Shown: positions 17,868 through 47,367 of the stretch, in pieces
How positions within the stretch are numbered: position 1 is the first letter of the stretch
How the letters are laid out: each line of letters begins with the position of its first letter
Assembly: GCA_030583785.1 (NCBI GenBank)
Contig: CP129475.1
Span: 850,209-914,208, forward strand
Direction: 5' to 3'
Length of the DNA: 64,000 nucleotides
Origin: Candidatus Dojkabacteria bacterium
GTDB lineage: Bacteria > Patescibacteriota > Dojkabacteria > B142 > OLB20
Position numbers and translations under genes: made by a program
The notes under the pieces: model-generated
The model's input: the letters and a program-made list of their open reading frames with translations, nothing else
Database searches by the model: none
What the model was told of the DNA's origin: nothing

Positions 17868-19067
17868 TTAGAGTGGATAAACACGAATAATTCTATCTGT
17901 ACCTTTACCGTTATCTGTTAGGATTAAGAGCTCGTTATCTTTTAAGGACTGGATCGTTCTTACTCTTCCTATTTCGTTTACATAAATATCTTCTCGTTGC
18001 AGAATGTTTAACGAAGGATCAGTTATTAGAAGCATAATTCTTGATCCTTTCTGTGCAGCTACTGCAATGGCGTTTTCATACTTTAGCCATTTCTCCCCTT
18101 TGATAATTGTTCCACCGGAAGTAGCAATTGTCGGGCTACCAGATGACCATAAAGCTAGAATAGCCTCAGGAAATTTTTGAACATCGGTCATAGGTACTCC
18201 ACCTTCTAAATAGCCTGCTGGTGGATCCCATCCAAAATTGCCAGGTAGTAGTGGGTTAACTTCGTCGTCAACCGCTGAACCATGCTCAATACTTATTCCT
18301 GATATGGGTAAATTAAGTTCTTTTTCAAAAAAGGCCAATCCTTGAGTATTCCGGTGACCATAGCTGTAAATTCTACTGTCAAATGGTTGGTCAAGGTTTC
18401 CTGAGGCAGGACCGCCGTCTCGATCAACACGAAGTATTTTTCCCCCAAGACTGGTTGGGTCCTGTGGGGTAGAACCGATAGCCGCATCGCCTGTACCTAC
18501 CCAAAGATAATTGTCTGGACCAAATTCCAGCTGACAGCCGGAATGTCTGCCAGATTCGTTAGCTGGTATGCCTGTAATTATGTCTCTTCTGTCTTCAAGT
18601 AAGTCGTTAGAGAGGGACAACTTCCAACGCACAACTCTAACATCGGTATTCCCGGATAGGTTGCTGTTGAAGCATGCATATATAAATCTATTAGATGAAA
18701 ATTCGGGGTCGATTGCTAAACCGAGCAAGCCACCTTCACCTCTTACAACTGTATCGTCAGGTGTAGGTATAGATTTTTTCACTCCATTGGCAAGATGTGT
18801 AAGTTTATTTGCTCTTTCGCTGAATATATAGCTTTCATCGGGCAGCATAATGATATCCCAAGGGTTGCTTAAACCGTCGACGATAATTTCGGAGGCGAAA
18901 TTGGGGGTTGTTGTTGAAGATCTAAGGCTCTGAATAGAATCGGTTGGTGCGATTGTAGGCACTCCTGTAGGTGATAAAGGAGATCTGAAACCTAAAGGAT
19001 CTATTGCAATAACAGAAAAGACTAATACTAAAACGAAAACTAGAAGTATTATTAAGATCTTTTTCAT
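17868..19067 (-). CDS. PQQ-dependent sugar (glucose/sorbosone) dehydrogenase-family beta-propeller protein
   Basis: Motifs GLLGLAIDPEF, GCQLEFGPDNYLWVGTGD, GKILRV and YGHRNTQGL are typical of soluble quinoprotein GDH; an N-terminal signal anchor is present. Confidence 0.75.
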   Translation of the reverse strand: MKKILIILLVFVLVLVFSVIAIDPLGFRSPLSPTGVPTIAPTDSIQSLRSSTTTPNFASEIIVDGLSNPWDIIMLPDESYIFSERANKLTHLANGVKKSIPTPDDTVVRGEGGLLGLAIDPEFSSNRFIYACFNSNLSGNTDVRVVRWKLSLSNDLLEDRRDIITGIPANESGRHSGCQLEFGPDNYLWVGTGDAAIGSTPQDPTSLGGKILRVDRDGGPASGNLDQPFDSRIYSYGHRNTQGLAFFEKELNLPISGISIEHGSAVDDEVNPLLPGNFGWDPPAGYLEGGVPMTDVQKFPEAILALWSSGSPTIATSGGTIIKGEKWLKYENAIAVAAQKGSRIMLLITDPSLNILQREDIYVNEIGRVRTIQSLKDNELLILTDNGKGTDRIIRVYPL

Positions 19068-20055: not shown

Positions 20056-21258
20056 ATGTCGATCAGCACTAAATCAATCATACTTGTGTTTGTGTCGTTG
20101 TTGCTTCTGGTTCTTTTCAATCTTTCTTTCTCAAGAGCGTATATCCTATCTGGATTTGAAGAAGCAGAGAACAGGCATATTAGCAGCTCAATGAATCTTG
20201 TTCTAAACACTCTCAGAACCAAAGTCACGAATAGCTTAATTACCTCCAGAGATTATGCTGCTTGGGATGACACCTACAACTATCTTTTAGGGAATTATCC
20301 TACTTTTTTTGAATCGAATTTTACAGCAAATACATTAGATAATCTTGGCTTAAGTTTTTTAGCAATACTTGATGATGAAGATAATGTTGTTGATTCAGTC
20401 TTCTTAGATGACGAGGCTAACTTATTACAACCAGCACCTGATCGGTGGCTCGAATTTATACTTAGCAACCCCAAGTTGTTGGCTTTACCCGATGATGTAT
20501 CTCAACATGGAGACCTTCAGGAATCTGAGTTCGGACCTGTAATAATTACTGTTACAGCAGTCAATAATTCCGAGCTTACTGCAGAGTCACCTGGCAAGTT
20601 GGTCATGGTAGAATTACTTGATCAATCAAAACTTGACCAATTAGGTGAACAGTTGTTATTTCCAGTAAAGATAACACAGTCTCAAGTTGATCAGAATGCC
20701 TTGGCAGATGATGCCATAATTGCTATTCATAAGCTATCTGAAGACCAAGAGATTATTGTTGATCACACTAACTCTGTACACTATGCATACTCTTTCTATT
20801 ACTCACAATATTCAAACTCAAAACTTTTAATTCAGATTGAATGTACGCATGGAATTTTTGCACAGGGGGAAGATGTGTTGAATTATTATCTTCTACTAAT
20901 CATTGTTGGTGGAATAGTTACCTTGATAATTCTATATACGGGCATGACTACATTCTTGCTAAGGCCTTTAGGCAAGTTGAACAGTCAGTTGGATAATATA
21001 ATTCTCTCTAGCAATTTTACTTTAAGAACTGAGATAAATAAGGCTGGTGAGATATCAAGTCTTTCAGATAGGATTAACAGACTCTTGGATTCGGTTAATA
21101 GATCTGAGGCTACAATGATCAAACAGCAAGAGTTAGTCGAACAGAGGAACAAAGAACTTGCTGCACTTAATCAAGAGATGCTGGAGACAAATAAAATGAT
21201 GATAGGACGAGAACTGCAAATGGCAGAGCTTAAGAAGCAAATTGCCAAAGAGGAGTGA
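20056..21258 (+). CDS. sensor-like protein: TM - extracytoplasmic domain - TM - HAMP - signalling-helix-like C-terminus (no output domain)
   Basis: HAMP signature LLRPLGKLNSQL...AGEISSLSDRINRLLDSV; C-terminus ...NKMMIGRELQMAELKKQIAKEE. Confidence 0.55.
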   Translation: MSISTKSIILVFVSLLLLVLFNLSFSRAYILSGFEEAENRHISSSMNLVLNTLRTKVTNSLITSRDYAAWDDTYNYLLGNYPTFFESNFTANTLDNLGLSFLAILDDEDNVVDSVFLDDEANLLQPAPDRWLEFILSNPKLLALPDDVSQHGDLQESEFGPVIITVTAVNNSELTAESPGKLVMVELLDQSKLDQLGEQLLFPVKITQSQVDQNALADDAIIAIHKLSEDQEIIVDHTNSVHYAYSFYYSQYSNSKLLIQIECTHGIFAQGEDVLNYYLLLIIVGGIVTLIILYTGMTTFLLRPLGKLNSQLDNIILSSNFTLRTEINKAGEISSLSDRINRLLDSVNRSEATMIKQQELVEQRNKELAALNQEMLETNKMMIGRELQMAELKKQIAKEE

Positions 21259-21322: not shown

Positions 21323-22480
21323 ATGCCCAAAAGACAAGCCTTTACCATTCTTGAAGTACTTATAACAATAACACTTCTTGGTTTTCTTGCGACGATAACC
21401 ATAATTGCCATCAATCCTCAAAAATCAATTACCGAGGCTCGAGATGCAAAAATTCGAGAAATCGTAGAAGAATCGAGAGCTGCTGTTATCAATTATTCGA
21501 TCAATAACAACGGTGATCTTCCTCTAGTAGGTGGAAATCCGCTCCCGCTTGTGACAGCTGAAACTATTGTCAGTAATGGTGTTCTACTCCCAAGTGTAGA
21601 TGGTTTAATACCTGACTACTTGATTATTCTGGAAACCGAGATGCAAGATATTAGTGTTTATGTAGGATTATTTGCAGGAGATGTTCCAGTAACGGCGGCA
21701 TTTCTTAGCGGAGGGGACTTGTACATTAGTGCTCAAAATAATTTTGTCATTCAAGTTTCAACTACTCCAACACCAACGGCAACGGTAGTCCCAAGTTCAT
21801 GCAGTATTTCGTACACAGTTACAAATCAGTGGCAGGGCGGATTTAACGCCGAAGTCGTAATTACTAATGATTCAGGCGACGATCTTGTTGGTTGGGATGT
21901 TGATCTTGCTTTCTCAGGTGACCAGGCTGTTACTAATGCATGGAATGTGTTCTGGGAACAAAACGGTTCAAACTTCAGTGCCGAAAATCAAGGCTATAAT
22001 GCGACAATTACCGGAAATGGCGGTACTCAATCCTTTGGGTTTGGGGCAACTTTTTCTGGTAACAACTATGGTCCTTTGAACGACGAAATAACGCTGAATG
22101 GTACTCCATGCAATACAACAATCACCACCTTTGATACGCCGCCACCTGTAATTTTAGAGTCTTGTTCTGTCAGCTATCAGATTGGAGGTCAATGGGGTAA
22201 TAACTATACGGCAAGTGTTACTGTCACAAATAATGGCACAGAAAATATTAACGGGTGGGTACTTGATTGGGATTTTCCGGAAGATCAGTTAATAACAAGC
22301 ATATGGAACGCAGGTTATTCTCAGAATGGGCAAAGCGTTACGGCTAATGATTTGACATACAACGCGCAAATACCGCCAAATGGCGGTACTCAGTCGTTCG
22401 GATTTCAGGCAACTTTTGGGAGCCAGAATTCTTCTATACCAAGCACCGCCTTTACATTAAATGGCAATCAGTGCGAATAG
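21323..22480 (+). CDS. type IV pilin-like protein (prepilin N-terminal domain) fused to two CBM2 carbohydrate-binding modules
   Basis: N-terminus KRQAFTILEVLITITLLGFLATITIIAINP. The two modules (nt 21800-22111 and 22163-22474) have CBM2a hallmarks (C..Y.V.NQW..GF.A.V...N....W.....F..Q.VT..WN...GGTQSFGF...LNGTPC). Confidence 0.8.
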   Translation: MPKRQAFTILEVLITITLLGFLATITIIAINPQKSITEARDAKIREIVEESRAAVINYSINNNGDLPLVGGNPLPLVTAETIVSNGVLLPSVDGLIPDYLIILETEMQDISVYVGLFAGDVPVTAAFLSGGDLYISAQNNFVIQVSTTPTPTATVVPSSCSISYTVTNQWQGGFNAEVVITNDSGDDLVGWDVDLAFSGDQAVTNAWNVFWEQNGSNFSAENQGYNATITGNGGTQSFGFGATFSGNNYGPLNDEITLNGTPCNTTITTFDTPPPVILESCSVSYQIGGQWGNNYTASVTVTNNGTENINGWVLDWDFPEDQLITSIWNAGYSQNGQSVTANDLTYNAQIPPNGGTQSFGFQATFGSQNSSIPSTAFTLNGNQCE

Positions 22481-22482
22481 CA

Positions 22483-22500
22483 GATTACATCATTGTAATC
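22483..22500. terminator. short hairpin between convergent genes (possible bidirectional terminator)
   Basis: The sequence gattaca-tcat-tgtaatc forms a perfect 7-bp inverted repeat overlapping both stop codons. Confidence 0.2.
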
Positions 22501-22781
22501 AGCATCTTGCTGTAATGGTTGTCCTGTCGGTTAATTACTGATAGTTTCAGTTTTTTACCTTTGAGACTTGTTCCATGTAGCGTATCGATTGCTTTTTTTG
22601 TTGCGGCTTCTGTTGCCATAGTTACGATTGCTTCACCAAGTGACAGACCGTCATTTGTTCTTACAAGTTTCACCTCTTTAACATTTCCTGCTTGTTCAAA
22701 TAGATTCTGAATTTCAGACTCTGAAGAACCCCAAGAAAGATTGGCAACGGAAATCATACGATTTTCCATTTGTATTCTCAC
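22485..22781 (-). CDS. RRM-type RNA-binding protein
   Basis: About 90 aa with an RNP-2-like ISVANL and a glycine-poor RNP-1-like region. The size and architecture fit bacterial RRM proteins. Confidence 0.55.
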   Translation of the reverse strand: MRIQMENRMISVANLSWGSSESEIQNLFEQAGNVKEVKLVRTNDGLSLGEAIVTMATEAATKKAIDTLHGTSLKGKKLKLSVINRQDNHYSKMLITMM

Positions 22782-22931: not shown

Positions 22932-23513
22932 ATGCCAAGAATCTTTATTATTATATTTAATGGTTTACTCAGTTTGGTAATCGCTGCTATTGCCTTGTCA
23001 GTGATCGTAGTTCCATTTCTTCCAGAGCTAATCTATGAAGAGACTGGCGATGTAGAAATCGAGAATATTGTTCAAGAAACAAGAAAAACGCACAAAGAAG
23101 AGATCCGTGAGAATTTTCTGCTAATCCCTAAGATTCGTGTGGCTTCAATCATAAACGAAGGGGATTCATATCTTGCCCTTGATCAGGGTGCATGGAGAAG
23201 ACCACTTGCAAGTAATCCTAAAGAAGGGGGAAATACAGTTATAGTCGCGCATCGTTTCTTGAGTGGAATGCAAGAGAGGTCGTTTTATCATTTACCCAAG
23301 CTTGTGGTTGGTGACGAGATATATATCTACTGGGATAATGAAGAATATGTCTATGAGGTCTTTGAAACTAGAACAGTCGAACCTTACGATAAGGAAATTG
23401 AAGATAACTCAGATGAGCCGATCCTTACTTTATATACCTGTACGCCATTATGGACATCAGACAAAAGATTCGTAGTCTTGGCAAAACCAAAGCTGATAGA
23501 AGAGACTATTTAA
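22932..23513 (+). CDS. sortase (probably LAXTG-recognising, class-E-like)
   Basis: N-terminal TM with the catalytic triad context TVIVAHRF (His), TLYTCTP (TLxTC Cys) and DKRFVV (Arg). It is adjacent to an LAXTG substrate. Confidence 0.85.
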   Translation: MPRIFIIIFNGLLSLVIAAIALSVIVVPFLPELIYEETGDVEIENIVQETRKTHKEEIRENFLLIPKIRVASIINEGDSYLALDQGAWRRPLASNPKEGGNTVIVAHRFLSGMQERSFYHLPKLVVGDEIYIYWDNEEYVYEVFETRTVEPYDKEIEDNSDEPILTLYTCTPLWTSDKRFVVLAKPKLIEETI

Positions 23514-23593: not shown

Positions 23594-26500
23594 TTAGAAT
23601 CCCTTAATACTCCTGAAACTGATTCTCTCGGAGATTGAACTAAGGTCTCTTCTTCTGCCAATTGTTAAGAGATTGTAATTCTTTATGTTTACTGCTGCCA
23701 GAGTGATTAATATCATAAATGCGGCAACTGAAGGTACTAAGAATGAGGACCCAGTTACTGCAAGTGTTGGTCTGATCCAAGTTGTCGGATCGTCAACTTC
23801 ACCTGTGGCTGGGTCATTGGAATACCTTGGTTCTTGACCTGCAAGGATGTCGTCATCAATGTCACCGTTTAGGTTGTCATCCCAGTAGACATAAGCATGG
23901 TTTTCGAGTGTTTCTATGGTTGGAGGTACAGTTGTTCTAAATGTAAGTACGACTTCGTTATCGCTGTCGTCCTCATCTGTCCCGCCAAGGTCCGGTGCAA
24001 TATTGCCCTCCCAGACAACTTGGTTATTCAATGAGTCGAAAGTACATAGAGTCGTTGTTGATAAGCCACGAGCTTCGCATTGAAAACTATCTGTCACATA
24101 GGTGGTGTTTACTGGAATCGGATCAATAATCCTTACATCCAGAGCCACAGTATTACCATCGTTAATCCAGACCATCTTCCATTCAATTTCTGGCAATCCA
24201 GCATCGTTAAATGTTTTTAGCGCCGATGGAGGATCAAAGACATTTGTATATAAGACGGGAACAGATGTGTCGTCTGAGTTGTCTTCTGGTCTGATATCTG
24301 GCCCGTTATTACCATCGTCAGTTATTGAGGCTTCATTATATATTTCCGAGTAGACAGGAGGGTAATCAGCTGTTGTTACAGCAAATTCTATTGATCCAGA
24401 TGTATTTCTGGGGACAGTCCCAACACTTATAGTACAAATACTACCGGGATTGTTGTCTGGAAGACAACTCCATCCAACCGAACTTAAAGTTGGGTTAAAA
24501 ACAGAATTATCCGGAACTGTATCGGAAATTTCTACTCCTGTTGCGTCTGTAGTGCCAAGGTTTTCGTAATTAAGGGTGAAAACGAGGTCAGTATTGAAAG
24601 AAACAGAAGAAGCCGTAGTCGTCTTTTCTATGGCAAGATCTACAACATTGCCCATAAGATTTTCGTCTGTGTCTGTATTGTTTGTAGGTGTTGGATCGAT
24701 GCCTTTACTGCCGTCATCCGTTACAGAAGCTGTATTGGTTATTGATGTGGTTAAAGGTGCAACCGGATTATCAATTATGACTGCGAATTGAATTGTTTCA
24801 TTCCCTCCGTTTTCTGCCAGAGGAGTACCGAGGTGGGAGCTTAGATCAAAGATGCAAGTGCTTCCGGCCGAATTGTCGGGGGTGCAAACCCATCCAGTTG
24901 TACTTAGCGAATCTTCAAAAGTTGTATTCGCTGGAACTTCTTCTGAGACAATAATTCCTGTAGCTTCAACCAGTCCTGAGTTGGTAATTGTCAGATTGTA
25001 AACTAAAGTATCACCCGGATCACTTTCTAATGCCCCGTCTGTTTTATCGATTTCTAAGTCGACTACGGCAACTGTAATGCTATCAGATGCAATAACTGGA
25101 CCGACAGTTCGTTCGTTGCTATTTGTGTTCGGAAGAGTGCTAAATTCGACGATTCTAGTTTGATTCGTAACTTGGGGATATACTGACTGATCAATTGTTC
25201 CAACAAGTTGAACACTAAAGCTTACCGTACAAGATTCTCCGGCCGGCAATTCAATTATTTGACCCGTTAATACAGGACTACTTGAATCATCAACTGACAT
25301 TGAAATCGTCACGCCTGCGCTGCATAAAGCCGAGATGTCGTTTTGATATAAAAATACTCCTGTGTGGATTGAGTTAAGATTGTCTAGCCAATCAACATCG
25401 AAGGCAGAAGAGCTGCCGTTGTTTTCTATGGTAATCTGTACATCAGCAAACTCGAATGGTGAAGCTTGATCTGGGTCTACTCCGGTATCAAATTCTTTAT
25501 CAATTGTTAAGTTCGGTTCTACAATATCGAAATCTATAGTATTCGAATTTACAATTTGACCGCTTGGCAGATTAGCCTGTAAACTTGATGTGTTTGAAAA
25601 TTGGGTTGTTCCAAGGGGCAATCCGTCGTTAAGAGGAATATCTAAAACGACTACATCAATTCTGATGCCAAAGAAGTCGTTTAGGCCATTTGCATCGACA
25701 TTGTTAACAACTCCAGAAAAATCGAATTGGAGGTTTGCACCAGCACTTCCATTTACGCAGCCACTGCAACTAGGTGCTGGAACTGTTCCATTGAAATCAA
25801 GAGCCATTTCACCAAAGCTATCGGCAGCGACGGTTACTAGGCTGTGAGATATGTAGGCCGTGTTGGCAGCTAAATTATCGATTAACCGAAGTGTAGATGT
25901 TGTTCCTTCGCCAATTCCAATGCGTAAGAAGTAACTAATCGTTTCTCCGATTGTAACTTGAATAGGATCTGTTGCATCAGAGGTGTGATTCGCAGATGTT
26001 TGACCAACCACTTTACTGATAGTTGGATTTGATGTGGAAACCATATTATCTGAATCTGTAACCGAATAATCGTTAAGTCCAGTGGCTCCGGTTTCTGATA
26101 GGTCGTAGTTTCCACTGCCATTTGTTCTGGCGTTTGTATTTGGTAGCGGAACTGAGCTCCATGTTGCCTGTGCAGTATTTGTTATGGTTTCGCTCGCTCC
26201 TGCGTTAACCGTTGCAGTTACGGTAATTGTTAGATATGTTCCATCATCTGGAAGGGTAAACGACCCAGTTGCTGGTACCAAAACTGTATTACCTGCAAAT
26301 GTTGAACTTGGGGTTGGAATAGAACCAGTAACTGCTACAGATACATTCGTTATTGTTAGATTTGTCTGAGCAGGATCTTGGATAACAACCTCGTATGCAT
26401 CTGCATTACTAGAAGCGTTATGCGTAACAACAATTTCGTATTCAACACTACTACCTGCTTGGACTAGAGGTGGTATAGAACTTGCCGTTTTAGATATATC

Positions 26501-29500
26501 CAAAATTGGCTCAATTACTGTAATTACTACTGGAACAGAGTCAGTTACACTGAGAACTCCTGCTGCATTTGGATTATCAAAGACTAATCCTGCAGTATTT
26601 GCTAATGTTGAGTTTCGTTGTAAACCAAGTTCGTTTAGCACTGTTAGGCTTAAGCGAATAATAAAACTGTTATTATTGCTATTGTTATCTGCTGTAGTAG
26701 TTATTGAGCTGAATGCGAGTGATACATCATCGCCACTACTTGCCCCACCTGTAACAACAGGTGTTGGGATCGATCCGGCAAAGTCTGCGCTAAGATTACC
26801 TCCAGCGGTAGTAATAATTTGATATGATGAGTACCTCATACCGTTTGGAATATAGTCAGTAACAACAACATTGTTGGCTGTGCCTTCGGGCATTGTTATT
26901 AGGATCTCGTAATTAACAGTTGAGCCGATAGCGTATGTGGTGACAGACGGTTCAAGCTTGTCGATGGTGATTGATCCAATCGTGGTATTGGCAGAACTAG
27001 AGGCAACATAATCATTAAGAAGGCCGACTCCGTCATTTCCATTTCGTTCTCCTGTAGAACTGCCACTTGCACCAGGTGTGCTTGACCCTGTTGGATTAGT
27101 TGTTGTTCCATTTGTGCTGGGAAGACTGCTCCAGCGAGCACTGGCAATGTTGTTAATTATTTCTTGTGGTTGTATGACAGAATCAACGATTGTATTTATT
27201 GTGATTGTCGCTTGTTGACCCTTGTTTAGAAAATCGAGAAGAATATCGACTGATTGCCCGCTACTGTTATCTGTGTAGCCATTTGGAGTAGATACAACTA
27301 CCGATCCGACAACAGCTTCTGCTGGAACCAAGTCCAGAACATTAATATCAAATGCGGTTGCCCCATTAACACTGGTATCTTGGTTTCTCACGGTCAATGT
27401 GTATTGAAGAGCGTCTCCTGCGTCTGTTGGAGCAATCGTAACAGCTTTAGAAACTGTGACAACAGGTTCAACCACACGAACTCTATTTGGATTTCCAGTA
27501 GTAGAAGTTGCTACTATTGAACCATTCTGCATTAATCTGAAGGTATTGTCTCTAGTTGTGGCAGCTTGATTTGTAGAAATATTTAGTACAAGTGCGTTAA
27601 ATTCAACAATGATGTACTCAAAATCTGTATCTCGGTCATCGTTTGTAACATTGCCGAATTTGAAATAAACCGATGTTCCACTACCGTATGTGTCGTTGTT
27701 GCTTGCTTCGGCACTAGATACTGCTGTATCTGGCAAAGGACATTCAGGAACAATGGAGTCTACATTTACTTCGTTACCCACAAAACTAAGATCGGGATTA
27801 CTACCACCATCACAGCCAATTGAGGCGGGAATTAAAGTGCTTGACGATATGCCTGCATCGTTGGCAACAAATGCAATCATAGCTGTTCCGTCGTTGATAA
27901 ATTGAAGTCCGGTTGGCAACATGTCTCTAAACATCAGATTCGGCGCCGTTGCTTCGGCAATACGGATGTAAGTCCTATATCTGATAATCTCTCCTACGGC
28001 AACTCTTTCAATTGAGCTAAGAACACCTGTTGAAGATTCTGATGTTGAAGTGATTAATTTCGTTGGATTTGCTGAAAGAATTGTTACTGTTCCGGATCCG
28101 GAAACAACATAGTCGTTCTCTGAACCTCCTGGATCTGAGGTGCTTCCGGTTCTTTCTGTCGAAGGAGAAGCATAGGTTGATTGATCGGTTAAAATTGATC
28201 CGGGCAAACTAGTCCACCTAGCGCTTGCTGTATTGATTATACTACTTCCAAGAGTAACGCTTCCGTCAATAGTTACATCAAAAGTTATTGTGCTACTCGA
28301 TCCATCGTCTGGAAAGGTTGCCCAGGATGCTGTAATTGTGCCAGACGATTCACTCGGTCCCACACTCGGAGCAAGTCCTGCTGTATGGTTAAGATTCCCA
28401 GCAAAGGTCATTCCTGATGGGATTACATCTGTAAGTTCTACTTCATAAGCATTGGCATCACTTGCGGGATTGTGATCGATTACCAGAGTAAAAGTGACTG
28501 TGTCTCCGGCATCGGCATTAGCTGCACTTGGAGTTTTTGTTACCCGAAGCGTTGGTTCTGCAATAACTACATTATCTGCACTATCGCTAACACTACCGTT
28601 TGCATAGGTGAAGACAGCGCTGTTATTCCTTTGTCTGTCTCTGTAGATTTCGTTATTATTTAGAACTACTGCTGAATAATTAAGTGTAATCGTTTCATCA
28701 ACAAGGTTGTTTGTATTGATATTTGTAAGCGTATTAAACGGAAACTCAATTGCTCGTCCTGAATTTGTTACTACTATTCCAGAAGCTACGCCTGCAAAAC
28801 CACCTGGGTAATCTGTGGTGAGATCGGGTGTTGACGAAGTTATTGAATTGATTCCAACAAGTGCAAGTCCCGAATCTAATGTATCTGTGAGTAGGGTGTT
28901 AATCATAACACCTTCTGGGATAGTAAGAACGACCTCGTATTCGATAATTTCTCCGACAACAACATATGGATCAATAGATCCTGCATGGTTGCTTCCGACA
29001 TAATTTTTTTCGATCTCCGGAATTTTAGTTTCGGTTACTTCTGCTGGATCTGATAAGCTTACAGCAAGGAAGTTGGGACCCATGTCTGAGCTGGAATACG
29101 ATGTTAATGAAGCGATATTTTCGATAAGTACCTCTGCATCAATAGATCCGATTATTTCTAAGTCATATGTAATTATGGCAATATTGCTGCCTGAAGTAGC
29201 ATGGTATGCAGATAAGGATCCAACAAGTGAATCGTCGAGCGTGATGCCTGAACCAAACAGGGGATATGTATCGAGCACATTTACTGGAGTCCATGCGAGT
29301 GGATTGCCAGCCCCATCAGTGATTGTCATGTTTAACCCTCCGCTGGGGACAATGAATTCACTTGGCAAAGTATCGGCAAAGGCAACATTGTAGGCTCCAT
29401 TTATGCCTTGACCGATATTTTCTATTACTACAGCAAAACTTACCAAGTCTGCGGCATCAACTCCAACTAGATTACTATCGATTGGTGTTGTCGTTAAATT

Positions 29501-41604: not shown

Positions 41605-44600
41605 GTGATACATAAACTTTTCTCATTAGTTAGTTTTCTGCCCGTATTTCTCATCGTCTTTTCTTCATCTGCACAGGCTCTAGTTGCGTCTCCTACAGCT
41701 GGAAACTATGCAAAGGGTGAAGAAATTACAATCTCCTTAACTGCCAATCCGGCAAATGAATATATTAATGCCATTGAATTTAATCTTCTGGCGGAAAATC
41801 TACAGATTTTGGATTATATTCTTCCGGCAGAAAGCGGGAATTGGTTGGTCAGCAAGCCAGGATGTGAAAACGATCAGTTTTATATTGCAGATAAGGTATG
41901 TGTCACACTTGGAAAGCAACAGGCTATTCAACCGGGAGAATCATTAGGGACTTTGCGTGTAATGATTACTGATGATGGCAACGCAAGGTTGCTTACAATC
42001 AATGGAAGCGGTTATTCTGATGGAGAAGCTGTTTATGAACTCGATCAACAGCTTGTTTCTTGGAATGAAGTTGTTTCTGAGTCAAGTACAGGCTTGCCTG
42101 TTGACCTACCTTGGGGATCAATACTTATTGTTGTTTGTATTGGACTAACTGTCGGGGTTCTGTTGTTGCTCCTGCTTCTTAGAAAATCAAAAAGAGCGGT
42201 ATTATCGACCGTTCTAATAGTCGGAGGAGGTCTTTTGCTCGCTGTTGCTGCGATTGTGGTCTTGAATTTTACTCAGTCAACAACTCCAGAACAATCATCG
42301 GCATCGCAAAATTCAAACAGACACAGCTTAAAGGTAATGTTCATTGGTTATAACCCTGTTGAAGGAGACAAGGATATTGCAACCACATACTTTCCGGGTG
42401 CTATGGCTGGGAGAACCGCTGCACAATTTGAAGATGAAATGTTTGAAAAGATTCGCAACGCATATTTAGAATTATCTGAAGGAAGAATTAATTTTTCCTT
42501 AAAAAAGAAGCTAAACATCACAAGTTTTCCGACTTACGATGGGGTTCAAGAGTTCACATTCGATAATTATGCAAGATGTGTCTACGGTACTCCAGCGTTT
42601 CAGCCTGAATTTTGCGATGCATTAAAGTTAAAGTTTGATTATGTAAAATTCGTTCAAGAAAATAATCTTTGTCAAATTGCAAAAGATGAAGGTATCGACG
42701 AAATTTGGATGTTCTCTCCGCCGTATATGCTAGCTTGGGAGAATTTTATGGTCGGTCCTACAGCTGGTTTTCCAGTAAATGGTCCGGGATTTGTTGTGCC
42801 AGGTTGTGACCGTCATATTGTTATAACAAATGGTACTTATGATAGACCTGGTAATCTTATGCATATTATCGGGCATAAAGCAGAAGCGATAATGGGTAGG
42901 CTAGTATCATATTGGAAGGCTGAAGACAAAGAACTACATTGGAATCGCTTCAGCAAGATTGACCTTTATGGAGGAATGACTCCAGATTTTTCAGTTCCTT
43001 ACTGCGGAAACATTCATTATCCCCACAATGGTACTTTTTCTTACGATATTGCAAACAAGACCACAAGACTGTCGGCCTGCAGTGATTGGAAGAATTTCCC
43101 GGAGTATACCGGAAACAATGTGCAGTCAAACTGTGACGATTGGGGCTGCACCGATGACGGTTGGAGTCTGAAATGGTTATCTTCACTACCGCATTCTGTC
43201 GGCGAGGTACTAATGACAGCTCCAAGTGGCGAGAAATTTGTTTTCAAAAAAGACTGGTGGTACTACTTCTTATATCCAGAAAATGTAATCTCTTTCCCTC
43301 AGTATATTCAAGAATGCACAAGTTTCACCTATGGCAAATGGAGTGTCTGTAGCAATAAAACACAGACAAGATCTGTTGTAAGTAGATCACCAGAAAACTG
43401 TTATGGAGAACCAGCAGAACCACTTGTTCAAGAGTGTGCAGATCCGATAGTCGCATGTACGGATTACAAATATAGTGATTGGGGAATATGTATTGATGGA
43501 AAACAAAGCAGAACAGTAGAAGATAGCCTTCCTTCTGGTTGTATTGGCGGAGCAAACCCAGTACTTTCGCAGTCGTGTCAGGTTGCTTGTACTGCGTTTA
43601 CTTATACTGAGTGGAGCGGCTGTAATGAAGAAAGCTTAATCAGCACTCGTCAGCTAGTGTCTTCATTACCAACAGGGTGTGTGGGTGGAACTCCGGAACC
43701 TTTGTCACAGAGTTGTACGATAGCACCAGAGCGATGTACTGAATTCAATTATTCAAACTGGTCGGCTTGTGTTGAAGGTAAACAGACCAGAACTCTAGTG
43801 TCACAATTGCCAGGCGGATGCTCCGGCTCTGCACCTGGTCCATTTGAACAGTCCTGTCAGTCAGTGTGTAGCGAATTCACCTATTCTGATTGGGGAGAAT
43901 GCATAGATGGAAGCCAGAACAGGACTATTCTTTCGTCCCTTCCAAGCGGATGTAGCGGAGGTACTCCTGCAGAATTAACTAGAGCGTGCACACCGGTATG
44001 TTCGAATTTTGTTTATTCCGAATGGAGCGAGTGTGTGAATTCGAACCAAACAAGAACAATCATTTCAGCTCTGCCTCAGAATTGTAGCGGTGGATCACCG
44101 GCTGCTTTAAGTAGATCATGCACTGCAATAATCCAACCAACCCTGATACCTCAACCGGTTGCTTGTACGAGTCATACATATTCACCATGGGGAGCTTGTC
44201 GAGGAGGCAGTTCAACCAGGACTGTAGTGTCTTCTGTACCAGAAGCTTGCGTTGGTGGTGTTGCTCCGGTAACTACGCAATCCTGTACTTCGCCACAAGT
44301 AACCTGTCAGGAATTCTCTTATTCTGCTTGGAGCAACTGCGAAGACGGCAGAAGAGAAAGGATAATTGTGGGTTCTTCTCCTGCAGGATGTATTGGTGGA
44401 ACACCAGCACAGCTTAGTCAGGGTTGTACTTCTGAAGTAACTTGTCAGTCGTTCACCTATTCTGATTGGGGACAATGCAGGAACGGAATACAATATCGAA
44501 ACATTAGTGGATCAACGCCTACTAGTTGTAGCGGTGGAAATCCTCAATTAAGTAGATCTTGTGAGACTCAACCGCTGCCTTCAGTTAATGTGACCCCTGT

Positions 44601-44817
44601 TGTCGCAGGATCAAGTTGTGTTGCAATCGACGGTAACCAAGATGGAAGGATTACATTGATTGAGCTGGCGAGGTTCCTTAGAAACTTTGGTACAAAGTGT
44701 GAGCCGGTAAATGTTCAAGGGTGCGGAAGTATTGATGCAAATGGAGACGGAATTGTCGACGACAAAGATTTAAGGCTTGTTCTTAGTAACTACAACAAGA
44801 ACCAGTGTAGAATTTGA
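41605..44817 (+). CDS. multidomain surface protein: cohesin-like domain - 2 TM - unknown domain - 9x thrombospondin-type-1-like Cys repeats - dockerin
   Basis: Signal peptide, then a cohesin-like beta region (nt ~41677-42010). TM helices at aa 171-221. Nine ~41-aa repeats C-x2-F-x-Y-S-x-W-x2-C-x2-G-x-Q-x-R-T-x2-S-x2-P-x-G-C-x-G-G-x-P-x6-C (nt 43315-44563). The C-terminal dockerin has two Ca loops (DGNQDGRITLIE / DANGDGIVDDKD). Confidence 0.7.
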   Translation: MIHKLFSLVSFLPVFLIVFSSSAQALVASPTAGNYAKGEEITISLTANPANEYINAIEFNLLAENLQILDYILPAESGNWLVSKPGCENDQFYIADKVCVTLGKQQAIQPGESLGTLRVMITDDGNARLLTINGSGYSDGEAVYELDQQLVSWNEVVSESSTGLPVDLPWGSILIVVCIGLTVGVLLLLLLLRKSKRAVLSTVLIVGGGLLLAVAAIVVLNFTQSTTPEQSSASQNSNRHSLKVMFIGYNPVEGDKDIATTYFPGAMAGRTAAQFEDEMFEKIRNAYLELSEGRINFSLKKKLNITSFPTYDGVQEFTFDNYARCVYGTPAFQPEFCDALKLKFDYVKFVQENNLCQIAKDEGIDEIWMFSPPYMLAWENFMVGPTAGFPVNGPGFVVPGCDRHIVITNGTYDRPGNLMHIIGHKAEAIMGRLVSYWKAEDKELHWNRFSKIDLYGGMTPDFSVPYCGNIHYPHNGTFSYDIANKTTRLSACSDWKNFPEYTGNNVQSNCDDWGCTDDGWSLKWLSSLPHSVGEVLMTAPSGEKFVFKKDWWYYFLYPENVISFPQYIQECTSFTYGKWSVCSNKTQTRSVVSRSPENCYGEPAEPLVQECADPIVACTDYKYSDWGICIDGKQSRTVEDSLPSGCIGGANPVLSQSCQVACTAFTYTEWSGCNEESLISTRQLVSSLPTGCVGGTPEPLSQSCTIAPERCTEFNYSNWSACVEGKQTRTLVSQLPGGCSGSAPGPFEQSCQSVCSEFTYSDWGECIDGSQNRTILSSLPSGCSGGTPAELTRACTPVCSNFVYSEWSECVNSNQTRTIISALPQNCSGGSPAALSRSCTAIIQPTLIPQPVACTSHTYSPWGACRGGSSTRTVVSSVPEACVGGVAPVTTQSCTSPQVTCQEFSYSAWSNCEDGRRERIIVGSSPAGCIGGTPAQLSQGCTSEVTCQSFTYSDWGQCRNGIQYRNISGSTPTSCSGGNPQLSRSCETQPLPSVNVTPVVAGSSCVAIDGNQDGRITLIELARFLRNFGTKCEPVNVQGCGSIDANGDGIVDDKDLRLVLSNYNKNQCRI

Positions 44818-45738: not shown

Positions 45739-47367
45739 TCAGCGGAATGAATTCATTATTAGAACGCCATCTTCGCTTGTGCAGGCATAGAGTTGAGTTA
45801 TTCCGTTAACTCTGCGAACTGCGTAGTGCGTATTACTTTCACTTCCGGTCGACGGATCATAGGGAATTATAATGAGTTCTCCACTTTGGGTTAATGGACT
45901 CAAATCAACACATTGGTCATTCGTAATTGCTGAACTTAGACTCAGTGATTTGGCCGTGATTGCTAGTGCATTTATTCTTGGTGAGAAGTTCGAGCTGCCT
46001 GTTTCCATTACGATCTTATATTGGAAATATCTGCCAAAGTATTGCGAATTAAGAACAATAATATTGTTCTGTTCTGTATTGTAGAAAGATCCAAGAGTGC
46101 CATCGGGACCAGAAAATCCAGCGTCAGAGCAATCGCTTTGCTCACAAGCTCTGACTTGCATAAGTAGCTTAGCTTTGCCCGAATTATACCTGCTACTTAT
46201 TTCTGTTCCTGTAAGTGCACGATTGTAGATTGCAACCTCATCAATGTCTCCATTAAAAAATCTATCGCCACTTGTGCGGCTTCCAATCCTAAGGGGAGTA
46301 GTTGAGGACTGTATTGTGCCGGTAAGGGATATTGTATTTTCTAGGTTGCCGTTAACATAAATACGCATCGATGAACCATTATATGTTCCTACCACATGGT
46401 ACCAGATACCTTGTTGTGGGACAGTCGTTCCAAGAACATATCTTCTGTTAACATTTGTTCTTATAGCAAATTCAAATGTACTATTATTGTAGTTATGTTG
46501 AATCTGGTATTGGTTATCAACATTTTTGTTGATTATCTGAGCCCATTGGGCTCCACTTGCAGGATTAATGTTCCATTTTATCCAAGTTTCAATTGTTATC
46601 TCTGTTGTTGGATTTAAGTTTGCTGAATTGCCAATTTCAATATATGAACTTGTTCCGTTAAACCTTCTGGCATTTGCAAATTGACCTAGAACCTGGCTAG
46701 TGTTAACAGAAGTTCCATTATTATTGTTTCCCGAAGTATCAGTAATGGTGCTACCAATATCGTCTAAGTGAAGAAGTAAAAAGTTGCCACTCATATCAAT
46801 TACACCGGCCGCTCCTGTATTAACAGATTGTTGATTGTCTGGAAGAGCAAAATTATACTTGTCATTTGGAGTAATTGTTACAGATTCCCAAGAACTGGGC
46901 TTTCCAGAATCGATGATAGCTGAATCATAGATTCCGTTTCCGATCGTTTTCCCTACGGAGTTAAGTTCAAGCATCGAATTGCTAAGAATATATTCTGTGT
47001 TTGTGTAGCTACCCAAATTGAAGTCAGAAGCCGAGTTGATTACATATTGTTGCTCTGAGCTAGGGTCACCGTTCACTGCAAGTATTGTACATTCAATTGC
47101 GCAACCTGAGTTATTTGTGCCGATAACACGAAGATTATTGTCAATGTCGGGGAAGTCGTTCCCACGGTTGTTGACCATATATTGTTGTAATCCATTTCTT
47201 ATAGAAATAAGGTCGCTAACTCTTTGTTCGTTTCTTGTTTCTAGAAAATGCTTAGCAGGATTAATTGCGAATATTACAATGGAAACTACAATAACTAGCA
47301 ATGCCATAGCTAAGAGAAGATCGAGTAGCGTAAATGCTTTATTTTTTAGTTGTCTAAGAAGCCTCAT
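45739..47367 (-). CDS. type IV pilin-like protein fused to a LamG/concanavalin-like lectin domain
   Basis: N-terminus KNKAFTLLDLLLAMALLVIVVSIVIFAINP. The LamG-like jelly-roll segment (FNGTSSYIEIGNSANLNPTTEITIETWIKW...RIGSRTSGDRFFNGDIDEVAIYNRAL) matches the laminin-G-like motif. Confidence 0.7.
   Translation of the reverse strand: MRLLRQLKNKAFTLLDLLLAMALLVIVVSIVIFAINPAKHFLETRNEQRVSDLISIRNGLQQYMVNNRGNDFPDIDNNLRVIGTNNSGCAIECTILAVNGDPSSEQQYVINSASDFNLGSYTNTEYILSNSMLELNSVGKTIGNGIYDSAIIDSGKPSSWESVTITPNDKYNFALPDNQQSVNTGAAGVIDMSGNFLLLHLDDIGSTITDTSGNNNNGTSVNTSQVLGQFANARRFNGTSSYIEIGNSANLNPTTEITIETWIKWNINPASGAQWAQIINKNVDNQYQIQHNYNNSTFEFAIRTNVNRRYVLGTTVPQQGIWYHVVGTYNGSSMRIYVNGNLENTISLTGTIQSSTTPLRIGSRTSGDRFFNGDIDEVAIYNRALTGTEISSRYNSGKAKLLMQVRACEQSDCSDAGFSGPDGTLGSFYNTEQNNIIVLNSQYFGRYFQYKIVMETGSSNFSPRINALAITAKSLSLSSAITNDQCVDLSPLTQSGELIIIPYDPSTGSESNTHYAVRRVNGITQLYACTSEDGVLIMNSFR

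What the first reader, a model, noticed from the sequence alone, without database searches (positions are those of the whole stretch)
21323..22480. Type IV pilin fused to two CBM2 cellulose/chitin-binding modules
A canonical class-III signal/prepilin N-domain (FTILEVLITITLLGFLATITIIAINP) is followed by about 130 aa of pilin-like linker. Two complete CBM2a-like modules follow (aa 160-263 and 281-384). Both carry the conserved surface Trp residues and the flanking disulfide Cys pair. A pilus subunit directly carrying polysaccharide-binding modules would make the fibre a glycan-targeting adhesin. This is unusual for pilins and relevant to attachment to a host or partner cell wall.
Basis: partly seen in the sequence, partly recalled or inferred. 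Interest (0 to 1): 0.62.

Follow-up and report, generated by a model that had tools for sequence, protein, structure and literature searches.

The report
Pilus subunit carrying two cellulose-binding modules
This gene from an ultra-small Dojkabacteria (CPR) bacterium encodes a type IV pilus subunit fused to two cellulose/chitin-binding modules, probably making the pilus a grappling hook for crystalline polysaccharide; it is a real, untested example of the already known "modular pilin" design.

Summary
ORF 21323-22480 (+), 385 aa, has a prepilin-type N-terminus. N_methyl and TIGR02532 both score above their curated cut-offs, the cleavage site is QA|FTILE, and Glu5 is present. A roughly 140-aa pilin module and a Pro/Thr linker follow, then two complete CBM2 modules (Pfam E = 3e-48; AF2 pLDDT >90; TM 0.92-0.95 to CBM2a structures).

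Two details need correcting. The "linker" is the pilin globular module itself. The aromatic face is Trp-Trp-Tyr, as in the crystallised C. cellulovorans CBM2a, not three Trp.

The window is from a Candidatus Dojkabacteria (WS6) genome. GenBank WKZ27704.1 names the protein only "cellulose binding domain-containing protein". The same 1.17-Mb genome encodes a type IV filament operon (PilB-like ATPase, PilC-like platform, four pilins) whose pilins use the same Ala(-1) cleavage motif. In related Dojkabacteria, CBM2-bearing pilins lie inside such operons, on three different pilin carriers. PilD could not be checked.

Modular pilins are a known class (Raynaud et al. 2021), and their dataset already lists pilin+CBM2 for three proteins. 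This is therefore a new member of a known kind, with a plausible role in adhesion to crystalline cellulose or chitin. No ligand or filament incorporation has been shown.

The parts
21323..22480 (+). Whole gene: modular type IV prepilin with two CBM2 modules (385 aa; identical to GenBank WKZ27704.1).
   Evidence: ORF list; Pfam and NCBIfam; exact cluster look-up. The same protein with the same synteny occurs on at least 10 contigs from several samples.
21323..21340 (+). Leader peptide MPKRQA (aa 1-6): short and basic, ending in Ala at -1. The predicted prepilin-peptidase cleavage is after A6.
   Evidence: N_methyl and TIGR02532 alignments. Mature residue 1 of solved pilins aligns with F7. Operon pilins of the same genome have KA|FTLIE and QA|FTLIE.
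21341..21418 (+). Hydrophobic alpha1-N segment FTILEVLITITLLGFLATITIIAINP (aa 7-32), with Glu at mature position 5 and the conserved INP motif.
   Evidence: Sequence. E11, I30, N31 and P32 are invariant in the family alignment. PDB profile hits to PilE1, PilA, GspG and geopilin.
21341..21757 (+). Pilin module (mature aa 7-145): alpha1 helix to about residue 61, an alpha-beta loop, and a 4-stranded antiparallel sheet (residues 112-145).
   Evidence: AF2 model of the module: pLDDT 77.5, pTM 0.65. Conserved alignment with P0152, P0002, P0146 and the 143-aa L006 operon pilin. Foldseek found no significant PDB match for the head.
21758..21799 (+). Pro/Thr-rich linker 1 (aa 146-159, STTPTPTATVVPSS).
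   Evidence: Sequence; low pLDDT in AF2.
21800..22111 (+). CBM2 module 1 (aa 160-263): C160-C263 pair, aromatic face W170/W207/Y225.
   Evidence: Pfam CBM_2, 2 stretches; AF2 pLDDT >90; alignment to 1EXG and 3NDY.
22112..22162 (+). Linker 2 (aa 264-280, NTTITTFDTPPPVILES).
   Evidence: Sequence; pLDDT dips in the 271-280 block.
22163..22474 (+). CBM2 module 2 (aa 281-384): C281-C384 pair, aromatic face W291/W328/Y346. It is 43% identical to module 1.
   Evidence: Pfam 281-384 covers the profile 1-101/101. PDB phmmer: 3NDY 2e-20, 1EXG 2e-15. Foldseek TM 0.92-0.95, rmsd about 1 A. Residue table.
45739..47367 (-). Second orphan modular pilin of the same genome (542 aa). It has a related carrier module (KA|FTLLD...AINP) fused to a LamG/concanavalin-like lectin domain, and is probably another interchangeable head for the same pilus.
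   Evidence: Motif scan; Laminin_G_3 E = 8e-34; BLASTP of the N-terminal 70 aa, 35% identity, E = 3e-5; phmmer.

Best explanation
The gene encodes a modular type IV pilin.

Proposed steps:
1. The prepilin is inserted into the membrane.
2. A prepilin peptidase removes the 6-residue leader after Ala6, leaving Phe1 (probably N-methylated) and Glu5.
3. The roughly 140-residue pilin module is polymerised into the pilus through its alpha1 helix. The machine is the genome's type IV filament system (PilB-like ATPase WKZ28374.1 and PilC-like platform WKZ28373.1).
4. A flexible Pro/Thr linker lets two disulfide-bonded CBM2a beta-sandwiches project from the fibre.
5. Each CBM2 presents a flat Trp-Trp-Tyr face of the type that stacks on the surface of crystalline beta-1,4-glycans (cellulose or chitin).

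Two modules per subunit, and possibly several subunits per pilus, would give high-avidity binding. This would tether the tiny cell to cellulose or chitin particles, or to an organism coated with such fibrils.

Because Glu5 is present, the subunit can sit below other subunits in the fibre. It is most likely a low-abundance (minor) pilin.

Shown: the domain identities and folds, the prepilin signature, the same-genome machinery, and operon-encoded CBM2 pilins in relatives. Inferred: processing, incorporation into the filament, the position in the filament, and the ligand.
For: Domains and folds:
- CBM_2 twice, E = 3.2e-48; N_methyl above its cut-off; TIGR02532 above its cut-off.
- AF2 pLDDT >90 for both CBM2 modules. 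Foldseek TM 0.92-0.95 and rmsd about 1 A to the CBM2a structures 3NDY and 6QFS.
- phmmer: 3NDY 2e-20 and 1EXG 2e-15, against only 5e-3 for the xylan-type CBM2b 1E5B.
- The W/W/Y triad and the Cys pairs are conserved in both modules.

Pilin module:
- The profile hits only type IV filament subunits in the PDB at E below 0.03. The hits are geopilin 5e-7, S. sanguinis PilE1 5e-6, Thermus PilA, PilE, GspG and one archaeal flagellin. Mature residue 1 of the pilins aligns with F7.
- AF2 gives alpha1 9-61 plus a 4-stranded sheet.
- The carrier is homologous to a stand-alone 143-aa pilin in a pilus operon.

Same-genome machinery:
- The operon is RR-PilB(MshEN+T2SSE)-PilC(T2SSF)-4 pilins, accessions WKZ28369-28374, on the 1,172,464-bp contig that also carries WKZ27704.1.
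- Its pilins use KA|FTLIE and QA|FTLIE.

Relatives:
- P0266 (WS6 OLB20) and P0232 are pilin+LVIVD+CBM2 proteins encoded directly after PilB and PilC.
- P0003 (Glu5-less, two CBM2) is the last gene of a three-pilin operon.

Literature:
- Modular pilins present effector modules on T4P, and S. sanguinis PilC is a proven lectin pilin.
- T4P genes including PilD are near-universal in CPR.
Against: - No PilD (Peptidase_A24) was seen in the window or in any fetched locus, and the rest of the genome could not be scanned.
- The gene is an orphan, about 665 genes from the pilus operon, with no pilus genes nearby.
- The pilin head has no significant Foldseek match in the PDB, and the first full-length AF2 run left residues 57-150 at pLDDT below 50.
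- Position -1 is Ala rather than the canonical Gly.
- No glycoside hydrolase is present in the window, so a link to cellulose use is not evident.
- There are no expression, localisation or binding data.
Confidence: 0.7

Rival explanations
1. Host-recognition adhesin. The architecture and pilus display are the same, but the CBM2 modules have been re-purposed to bind a polymer on the envelope or sheath of a specific host microbe. The pilus would then mediate episymbiotic attachment rather than attachment to free cellulose or chitin particles.
For: - Cultivated Patescibacteria are episymbionts that use T4P for host attachment (reviewed; Saccharibacteria papers listed).
- The gene sits among other surface-adhesion genes: a class E sortase, a 2794-aa LAVTG-anchored protein, and a LamG pilin.
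- No glycoside hydrolase is in the window.
- The same genome also has LamG lectin pilins.
Against: - Both modules keep the full type A planar aromatic face and CBM2a length, and their best matches are bona fide cellulose- and chitin-binding modules.
- No host of Dojkabacteria is known.
- Nothing in the sequence indicates a changed specificity.
Confidence: 0.15
2. Membrane-anchored surface protein that is not a filament subunit. The prepilin-type N-terminus serves only as an export and anchor signal, as with archaeal class III signal peptides on sugar-binding proteins. The CBM2 modules stay tethered at the cell surface or in the wall.
For: - The gene is an orphan far from the pilus operon.
- Subunits with bulky C-terminal modules may polymerise poorly.
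- The head-domain fold is not confirmed by structure search.
Against: - Glu5 and the INP motif are invariant in all family members.
- The whole 140-aa pilin module is conserved, not just the helix, and it is homologous to a stand-alone operon pilin.
- Sister CBM2 pilins are encoded within PilB-PilC-pilin operons.
- A membrane-tethered protein with short linkers would hardly reach through a wall and S-layer to contact an insoluble substrate (inference).
Confidence: 0.1
3. Component of a secretion or polysaccharide-degradation apparatus. The protein would be a T2SS-like pseudopilin or scaffold that positions secreted glycoside hydrolases on cellulose, with nutrient acquisition rather than adhesion as its primary role.
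For: - Weak NCBIfam similarity to GspG, GspH and ComGC (E = 0.02-0.4).
- The 144-aa operon pilin is annotated as GspH-domain.
- Dojkabacteria MAGs have been predicted to take part in carbohydrate degradation in digesters.
- A GSDH-type sugar dehydrogenase lies two genes upstream, and that family is fused to CBM2 in actinobacteria.
Against: - The window has no GH, dockerin/cohesin system or secretin.
- CPR lack an outer membrane, so a classical T2SS has no role.
- The GspG-type matches are far below their cut-offs and cover only alpha1.
Confidence: 0.05

Closest known systems
Modular type IV pilins, as defined by Raynaud et al. 2021 (PNAS, PMC8179133). The prototype lectin example is Streptococcus sanguinis PilC (Shahin et al. 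2023, PMC9934059).
   Same: A class III signal peptide and a small pilin module are joined by a short linker to an effector module that is readily recognised by domain databases. The effector binds carbohydrate. The organism is monoderm-type with no secretin. The 2021 dataset already lists the architecture IPR012902-IPR001919 (pilin + CBM2) for 3 proteins, and CPR lineages are prominent among modular pilins.
   Different: The effector is a CAZy type A module (CBM2a) for insoluble crystalline polysaccharide, present in tandem, rather than a ConA-like lectin for soluble or host glycans. Glu5 is retained. The gene lies outside the pilus operon. No experimental data exist. The tandem CBM2 architecture is not in the 2021 list.
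CBM2a cellulose/chitin-binding modules of secreted glycoside hydrolases: C. fimi Cex (1EXG), C. cellulovorans EngD (3NDY), S. coelicolor Chi18aC (2RTT).
   Same: Full-length HMM match, the same beta-sandwich (TM 0.92-0.95), the terminal disulfide, a planar aromatic triad (W/W/Y exactly as in 3NDY), and a Pro/Thr linker as in cellulases.
   Different: The modules are attached to a pilin, not to a catalytic domain, and there are two copies. The host is a 1.17-Mb CPR bacterium, whereas nearly all other CBM2 hits come from Actinomycetota, Chloroflexota or Bacillota enzymes.
Pilin-mediated cellulose adhesion in cellulolytic Firmicutes and Fibrobacter, for example the Ruminococcus albus type IV pilin-like cellulose-binding protein CbpC/PilA1.
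   Same: Type IV pilin-family proteins are implicated in adherence of cells to cellulose fibres.
   Different: From my own knowledge, not tested here: those pilins carry no recognisable CBM, and binding is a property of the pilin itself. Here a canonical CBM2 is grafted onto the pilin, so the binding determinant is explicit.
Sister Dojkabacteria CBM2 pilins found here: P0266 = KXK26621.1 of WS6 OLB20, P0232, the L006 602-aa protein, P0003/P0147, P0152, P0002 and P0146.
   Same: A prepilin N-terminus plus one or two CBM2a-like modules. P0002, P0152 and P0146 share the same carrier module (30-39% identity over the full length or the module).
   Different: - P0266, P0232 and the L006 602-aa protein use an LVIVD beta-propeller pilin carrier and are encoded inside PilB-PilC operons.
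- P0003 and P0147 use a Glu5-less PilX-like (tip-type) carrier.
- P0146 adds two PA14 modules.
- P0152 has a single CBM2.

Membership tests
Type IV pilin / type IV filament subunit (class III signal peptide; PF07963, TIGR02532, IPR012902) | The N-terminal prepilin cleavage/methylation motif is recognised by curated models. | tested here: met
   PF07963: 23.3 bits against gathering cut-off 21.2. TIGR02532: 18.1 against 16.3.
Type IV pilin / type IV filament subunit (class III signal peptide; PF07963, TIGR02532, IPR012902) | A short basic leader ending in a small residue at -1 (canonically Gly), then Phe/Met/Val at +1 and Glu at +5, within a stretch of about 20 hydrophobic residues. | tested here: met
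   The sequence is MPKRQA|FTILEVLITITLLGFLATITIIAINP. Position -1 is Ala, not Gly. Ala(-1) is also used by operon-encoded pilins of the same genome (KA|FTLIE, QA|FTLIE) and of related Dojkabacteria. Glu5 is invariant in the family.
Type IV pilin / type IV filament subunit (class III signal peptide; PF07963, TIGR02532, IPR012902) | A long N-terminal alpha1 helix of about 50 residues, homologous to that of solved pilins. | tested here: met
   AF2 helix 9-61 and 6-56. The profile against the PDB hits geopilin 5e-7, PilE1 5e-6, PilA 7e-5 and GspG 2e-3, aligned over positions 9-61/67 with mature residue 1 at F7.
Type IV pilin / type IV filament subunit (class III signal peptide; PF07963, TIGR02532, IPR012902) | A globular head with an antiparallel beta-sheet packed on alpha1-C. 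| tested here: inconclusive
Type IV pilin / type IV filament subunit (class III signal peptide; PF07963, TIGR02532, IPR012902) | A prepilin peptidase (PilD, Peptidase_A24) is present in the genome and processes the protein. | not testable with these tools
   None is in the 64-kb window or in the fetched loci, and the rest of the genome could not be read. The literature reports that PilD is widespread in CPR.
Type IV pilin / type IV filament subunit (class III signal peptide; PF07963, TIGR02532, IPR012902) | An assembly ATPase (PilB/GspE family) and a platform protein (PilC/GspF family) are encoded in the same genome. | tested here: met
   WKZ28374.1 (MshEN+T2SSE) and WKZ28373.1 (T2SSF) are on the 1,172,464-bp contig that also carries WKZ27704.1.
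Type IV pilin / type IV filament subunit (class III signal peptide; PF07963, TIGR02532, IPR012902) | Incorporation into a filament. | not testable with these tools
   This needs pilus purification, immunogold labelling or cryo-EM.
CBM2, subfamily 2a (CAZy; PF00553) | A full-length match to the CBM_2 HMM above the curated threshold. | tested here: met
   162.7 bits against 24, in two stretches; 281-384 covers 1-101/101.
CBM2, subfamily 2a (CAZy; PF00553) | A beta-sandwich fold superposable on solved CBM2a structures. | tested here: met
   pLDDT >90 for both modules. Foldseek: 3NDY E = 2.5e-11, TM 0.92, rmsd 1.1 A; 6QFS TM 0.92-0.95.
CBM2, subfamily 2a (CAZy; PF00553) | A disulfide between Cys residues near the N- and C-termini of the module. 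| tested here: met
   C160/C263 and C281/C384 align with the Cex cysteines. Bond formation itself is not testable here.
CBM2, subfamily 2a (CAZy; PF00553) | Three coplanar surface aromatic residues (W17, W54 and W72 in Cex). | tested here: met
   W170/W207/Y225 and W291/W328/Y346. The third residue is Tyr, as in the cellulose-binding 3NDY module. Coplanarity was not measured on the model.
CBM2, subfamily 2a (CAZy; PF00553) | Not the xylan-binding 2b subtype. That subtype is shorter, lacks the third aromatic loop and has Arg three residues after the first Trp. These criteria come from my own knowledge of Simpson et al. 2000. | tested here: met
   Each module is 104 aa with the third aromatic present. 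The residue at W+3 is Gly (module 1) or Asn (module 2), not Arg. CBM2b 1E5B matches only at E = 5e-3, against 2e-20 for CBM2a.
CBM2, subfamily 2a (CAZy; PF00553) | Binding to crystalline cellulose and/or chitin. | not testable with these tools
   This needs recombinant protein and binding assays.
Modular pilin (sensu Raynaud et al. 2021) | [quoted passage not shown] | tested here: met
   The domain order is pilin module, a 14-aa PT linker, CBM2, a 17-aa linker, CBM2.

The most novel reading that the evidence does not exclude
Dojkabacteria as a lineage may have turned their type IV pili into cellulose/chitin grappling devices. They would have done so by repeatedly grafting an acquired CBM2a module onto at least three unrelated pilin carriers: a PilA/PulG-like body subunit (this gene), a Glu5-less PilX-like tip subunit, and an LVIVD beta-propeller minor pilin. 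They also keep interchangeable lectin heads (LamG, PA14). If true, these ultra-small CPR bacteria would anchor to, and perhaps pull themselves along, crystalline polysaccharide fibres or fibril-coated hosts through pilus extension and retraction. That would be the first case of a CAZy-family CBM working as a pilus adhesin, and it would give a concrete, testable handle on the unknown niche or host of Dojkabacteria.
Probability: 0.4. Interest if true: 0.65.

Novelty: new member of a known kind. Interest (0 to 1): 0.45.

Why it matters
How CPR/Patescibacteria find and hold on to their substrates or hosts is largely unknown. For Dojkabacteria there is no cultivated representative and no known host.

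A pilus subunit with an explicit, well-understood binding module (CBM2a) makes a clear prediction about what these cells stick to: crystalline cellulose or chitin. That prediction can be tested with a simple recombinant protein, by labelling environmental samples, or by using cellulose or chitin as bait for enrichment.

The finding also extends the modular-pilin concept from host-glycan lectins to type A modules that bind insoluble polysaccharide. It shows module shuffling between pilin carriers within one lineage.

On the practical side, it exposes mis-annotation. WKZ27704.1 is named only 'cellulose binding domain-containing protein', and the OLB20 homologue is named 'Endoglucanase D precursor' although it has no catalytic domain.

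Tried and rejected
- **Pilin module alone against the 5.8-billion-protein index.** It returned nothing, not even the 99%-identical P0001, so this null is uninformative.
- **Full-length AF2.** Residues 57-150 stayed at pLDDT below 50. A second run on the module with four relatives gave a usable model.
- **Genome-contig scan with the single protein.** No relative was found, so the window's genome is not among the species representatives and could not be mined for PilD.
- **Genome-contig scan with the family alignment.** It was swamped by actinobacterial CBM2 enzymes. No locus matched the pilin module, and only WS6 OLB20 is a CPR.
- **Pfam scan of all window ORFs of 90 aa or more, plus reading the N-termini of ORFs with no hit.** No PilB, PilC, PilD, PilM, PilN, PilO or PilT was found in the window.
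- **Nearest-neighbour identities of 386 CBM2 domains.** Pilin-borne modules are 50-60% identical both to each other and to enzyme-borne ones. Single versus multiple acquisition is unresolved.
- **Promoter and terminator scan.** It found no more sites than in shuffled sequence, so co-transcription with the upstream CHASE4 gene is undetermined.
- **Rejected ideas.** It is not a sortase-dependent (Gram-positive type) pilin, despite the adjacent class E sortase, because the protein has no C-terminal LPXTG/LAXTG signal and ends in ...NGNQCE. It is not a cellulase, because there is no catalytic domain. It is not a CBM2b xylan binder.
- **tRNA and Rfam scans of the window.** Both were empty.
Full report
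**1. Observation**

The window holds an ORF at 21323-22480 on the + strand that encodes 385 aa. A stop codon lies two codons upstream, so ATG 21323 is the earliest possible start and the leader is MPKRQA.

Pfam gives CBM_2 at E = 3.2e-48 in two stretches; residues 281-384 cover the whole 101-position profile. N_methyl scores 23.3 bits against a gathering threshold of 21.2. NCBIfam TIGR02532, the prepilin-type cleavage/methylation domain, scores 18.1 against 16.3.

**2. Anatomy**

The domain order is as follows:
- Leader, aa 1-6.
- Hydrophobic alpha1-N, FTILEVLITITLLGFLATITIIAINP, with Glu at mature position 5.
- A pilin module running to about aa 145.
- A Pro/Thr linker, STTPTPTATVVPSS.
- CBM2 module 1, aa 160-263.
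- A linker, NTTITTFDTPPPVILES.
- CBM2 module 2, aa 281-384.
- One final Glu.

The two CBM2 modules are 43% identical to each other.

The full-length AF2 model gives pLDDT above 90 for both CBM2 modules and a long N-terminal helix, but leaves residues 57-150 unresolved. A second model of residues 1-163, with four relatives in the alignment, reaches pLDDT 77.5 and pTM 0.65. It shows helix 9-61, a loop region and four beta-strands at 112-145, which is the usual pilin layout.

**3. The CBM2 modules**

phmmer against the PDB finds C. cellulovorans EngD CBM2a (3NDY) at 2e-20, C. fimi Cex CBM2a (1EXG) at 2e-15, the ScLPMO10C CBM2, and the S. coelicolor chitin-binding module 2RTT. The xylan-type CBM2b 1E5B reaches only 5e-3. 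Foldseek superposes the model on 3NDY and 6QFS with TM 0.92-0.95 and rmsd about 1 A.

In an alignment with Cex and EngD, the Cex residues W17, W54 and W72 correspond to W170/W207/Y225 in module 1 and W291/W328/Y346 in module 2. The third aromatic residue is Tyr, exactly as in EngD. The terminal Cys pairs are conserved, and the residue three positions after the first Trp is Gly or Asn, not the Arg of CBM2b. Both modules are therefore CBM2a-like type A modules. Their known ligands are the flat surfaces of crystalline cellulose and chitin (established knowledge of the family). Sequence alone cannot tell cellulose from chitin.

**4. Organism and annotation**

Exact-sequence look-up identifies the protein as WKZ27704.1, [quoted passage not shown], on a 1,172,464-bp contig. 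A 99%-identical copy is MBW7954090.1. Neighbouring window proteins map to WKZ27689, WKZ27706 and WKZ27721, and to candidate division WS6 OLB21.

The identical protein, with the same neighbours (CHASE4 protein, RRM protein, class E sortase, 2794-aa surface protein), is found on at least 10 contigs from several sequencing runs. It is thus a stable gene of a recurrent population. The pilin nature of the protein is not reflected in its public name.

**5. Is there a pilus machine?**

The window itself has none.

The exhaustive HMMER search of 1.84 billion representatives gave 5519 CBM2-type hits. Among the best 150, seven clusters have a prepilin-type N-terminus:
- The query itself.
- P0002 (387 aa, KG|VSLIE, two CBM2).
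- P0146 (708 aa, two CBM2 plus two PA14).
- P0147/P0003 (RG|FTTIT, no Glu5, two CBM2).
- P0152 (262 aa, FA|FTLVE, one CBM2).
- P0232 and P0266 (pilin + LVIVD beta-propeller + CBM2).

P0266 is KXK26621.1 of WS6 bacterium OLB20, mis-named "Endoglucanase D precursor".

Their contexts are decisive. P0266 and P0232 are encoded immediately downstream of a response regulator, a PilB-like ATPase (MshEN+T2SSE), a PilC-like T2SSF protein and a small pilin. P0003 is the last gene of a three-pilin operon.

I used the two PilB sequences as the query for the last homology search. This gave P0300, which is 79% identical to the OLB20 PilB. Its exact sequence is WKZ28374.1, on the same 1,172,464-bp contig. The adjacent T2SSF (WKZ28373.1), the 144-aa and 169-aa prepilins (WKZ28372.1, WKZ28370.1) and a LamG protein (WKZ28369.1) are also on that contig.

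The window's genome therefore encodes a type IV filament operon about 665 genes away from the CBM2 pilin. In that operon the pilins read KA|FTLIE, KA|AILVE and QA|FTLIE, with a Glu5-less NG|YIALV for the LamG protein. Ala at -1 is thus the lineage's normal cleavage-site residue, and the window's QA|FTILE fits it.

A prepilin peptidase was not seen in any fetched locus, and the rest of the genome could not be read. Both genome-contig scans showed that the genome is not in that collection. The literature reports PilD and the core T4P set as widespread in CPR.

**6. Mechanism**

The best-supported reading is a modular type IV pilin, in five steps:
1. Membrane insertion.
2. Leader removal after Ala6.
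3. Polymerisation through alpha1 by the PilB/PilC machine.
4. Display of two CBM2a modules on a flexible Pro/Thr tether.
5. Avid binding of the pilus to crystalline cellulose or chitin.

Because Glu5 is present, the subunit can be placed under other subunits. This contrasts with the Glu5-less P0003 type, which by analogy with GspK/PilX-type subunits would cap the tip (inference; Raynaud et al. discuss tip versus body location).

The domains, the folds, the signature, the same-genome machinery and the operon-encoded sisters are shown. Processing, incorporation, stoichiometry and the ligand are inferred.

The rivals are:
- A host-specific adhesin with altered CBM2 specificity.
- A mere membrane-anchored surface protein.
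- A part of a secretion or degradation apparatus.

The conserved type A face, the conservation of the whole pilin module and the operon contexts argue against these, but do not exclude them.

**7. Comparison with what is known**

Modular pilins were defined by Raynaud et al. 2021. They counted more than 1,200 proteins in 264 architectures, with frequent carbohydrate-binding effectors (LamG/PF13385, PF13620, PA14) and many CPR examples. Their Dataset S1 lists IPR012902-IPR001919, which is pilin plus CBM2, for three proteins without comment. The tandem form is not listed.

S. sanguinis PilC is an experimentally proven lectin-bearing modular pilin in a tip complex. Pilin-like proteins are implicated in cellulose adhesion of Ruminococcus albus; to my knowledge they carry no canonical CBM. 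I found no paper that discusses a CBM2-pilin fusion or Dojkabacteria pili specifically. One MAG survey predicts that Dojkabacteria take part in carbohydrate degradation.

**8. Verdict**

The protein is a new, uncharacterised member of a known kind (modular pilins), with an already catalogued domain combination.

What adds some interest is the lineage pattern. CBM2 sits on three different pilin carriers, partly inside pilus operons, alongside alternative LamG and PA14 heads. One of these is a second orphan LamG pilin in this very window (45739-47367). This suggests that Dojkabacteria pili are specialised for glycan or fibre attachment, and it gives a direct experimental handle on an uncultured lineage.

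Scores: interest 0.45; confidence in the main explanation 0.7.

Noticed in passing
window 45739-47367 (-): A second orphan modular pilin (542 aa). Its N-terminus, KA|FTLLD...AINP, is related to that of the CBM2 pilin (35% identity over 70 aa), and it is followed by a Laminin_G_3 (ConA-like lectin) domain. It has Asp instead of Glu at mature position 5.
   Followed up: partly
window 22932-23513 (+) and 23594-31978 (-): A class E sortase lies next to a 2794-aa DUF11/CLIPPER-repeat surface protein. The C-terminus of that protein is ...TLAVTG, then a hydrophobic helix, then RRRD. This is an LAXTG sorting signal of the kind class E sortases use. With the CBM2 pilin, it forms a small surface-adhesion gene neighbourhood that is conserved in other contigs (L090).
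   Followed up: partly
window 20056-21258 (+): A CHASE4-domain membrane protein with a C-terminal coiled coil and no recognisable output domain lies 64 bp upstream of the pilin on the same strand. The synteny is conserved. Dojkabacteria pilus operons (L004, L006, L007) are likewise flanked by CHASE/PAS/GAF sensor kinases and preceded by a response regulator. A regulatory link is possible but untested.
   Followed up: no
window 17868-19067 (-): A GSDH-family (PQQ-type glucose/sorbosone dehydrogenase) protein with an N-terminal membrane or signal segment. The same Pfam family is fused to CBM2 in actinobacterial hits P0021 and P0032, so a functional connection to polysaccharide oxidation is conceivable, or this may be coincidence.
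   Followed up: no
window 41605-44817 (+): A 1070-aa secreted protein with no Pfam domain except a C-terminal EF-hand/dockerin-like calcium loop (DANGDGIVDDKDLRLVL).
   Followed up: no
window 47962-52392 (+): A 1476-aa protein with SdrD_B/SpaA (Cna-B-like) repeats and a C-terminal transmembrane anchor. It is another large surface protein, and the window is unusually rich in surface and adhesion genes.
   Followed up: no
L004 10001-11875 (P0266 = KXK26621.1, WS6 bacterium OLB20): Publicly named 'Endoglucanase D precursor', but it has no glycoside hydrolase domain. It is a prepilin (KG|FSLVE) + LVIVD beta-propeller + CBM2 protein encoded right after PilB, PilC and a small pilin, so the name is a mis-annotation driven by the CBM2 module.
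   Followed up: yes
L006 7789-11333: Two consecutive LVIVD+CBM2 pilins (602 and 582 aa) lie in one pilus operon, followed by three more small pilins. The last of these (143 aa, KQA|FTLIE...AINP) is homologous to the carrier module of the window's protein.
   Followed up: partly
L001 211-3219, compared with L004 10001-13501 and L007/L008 13524-16652: The operon layout is the same in all three: LVIVD pilin, then a pilin of about 170 aa, then a Glu5-less PilX-like protein, then PAS/HisKA sensors. The effector on the last protein is swapped: two CBM2 in L001, LamG in L004 and in the window's own species. This looks like module exchange at a fixed operon position.
   Followed up: partly
L005 8299-9178: Two DsbB-family genes lie just upstream of the single-CBM2 pilin P0152. 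This is of interest because CBM2 needs a disulfide, and CPR are reported to be enriched in thiol-disulfide oxidoreductases linked to pilins (Meheust et al. 2019).
   Followed up: no
window 22485-22781 (-): A small RRM_1 RNA-binding protein (about 90-98 aa) converges on the pilin gene, with only 4 bp between the two stop codons, which leaves no room for separate terminators.
   Followed up: no
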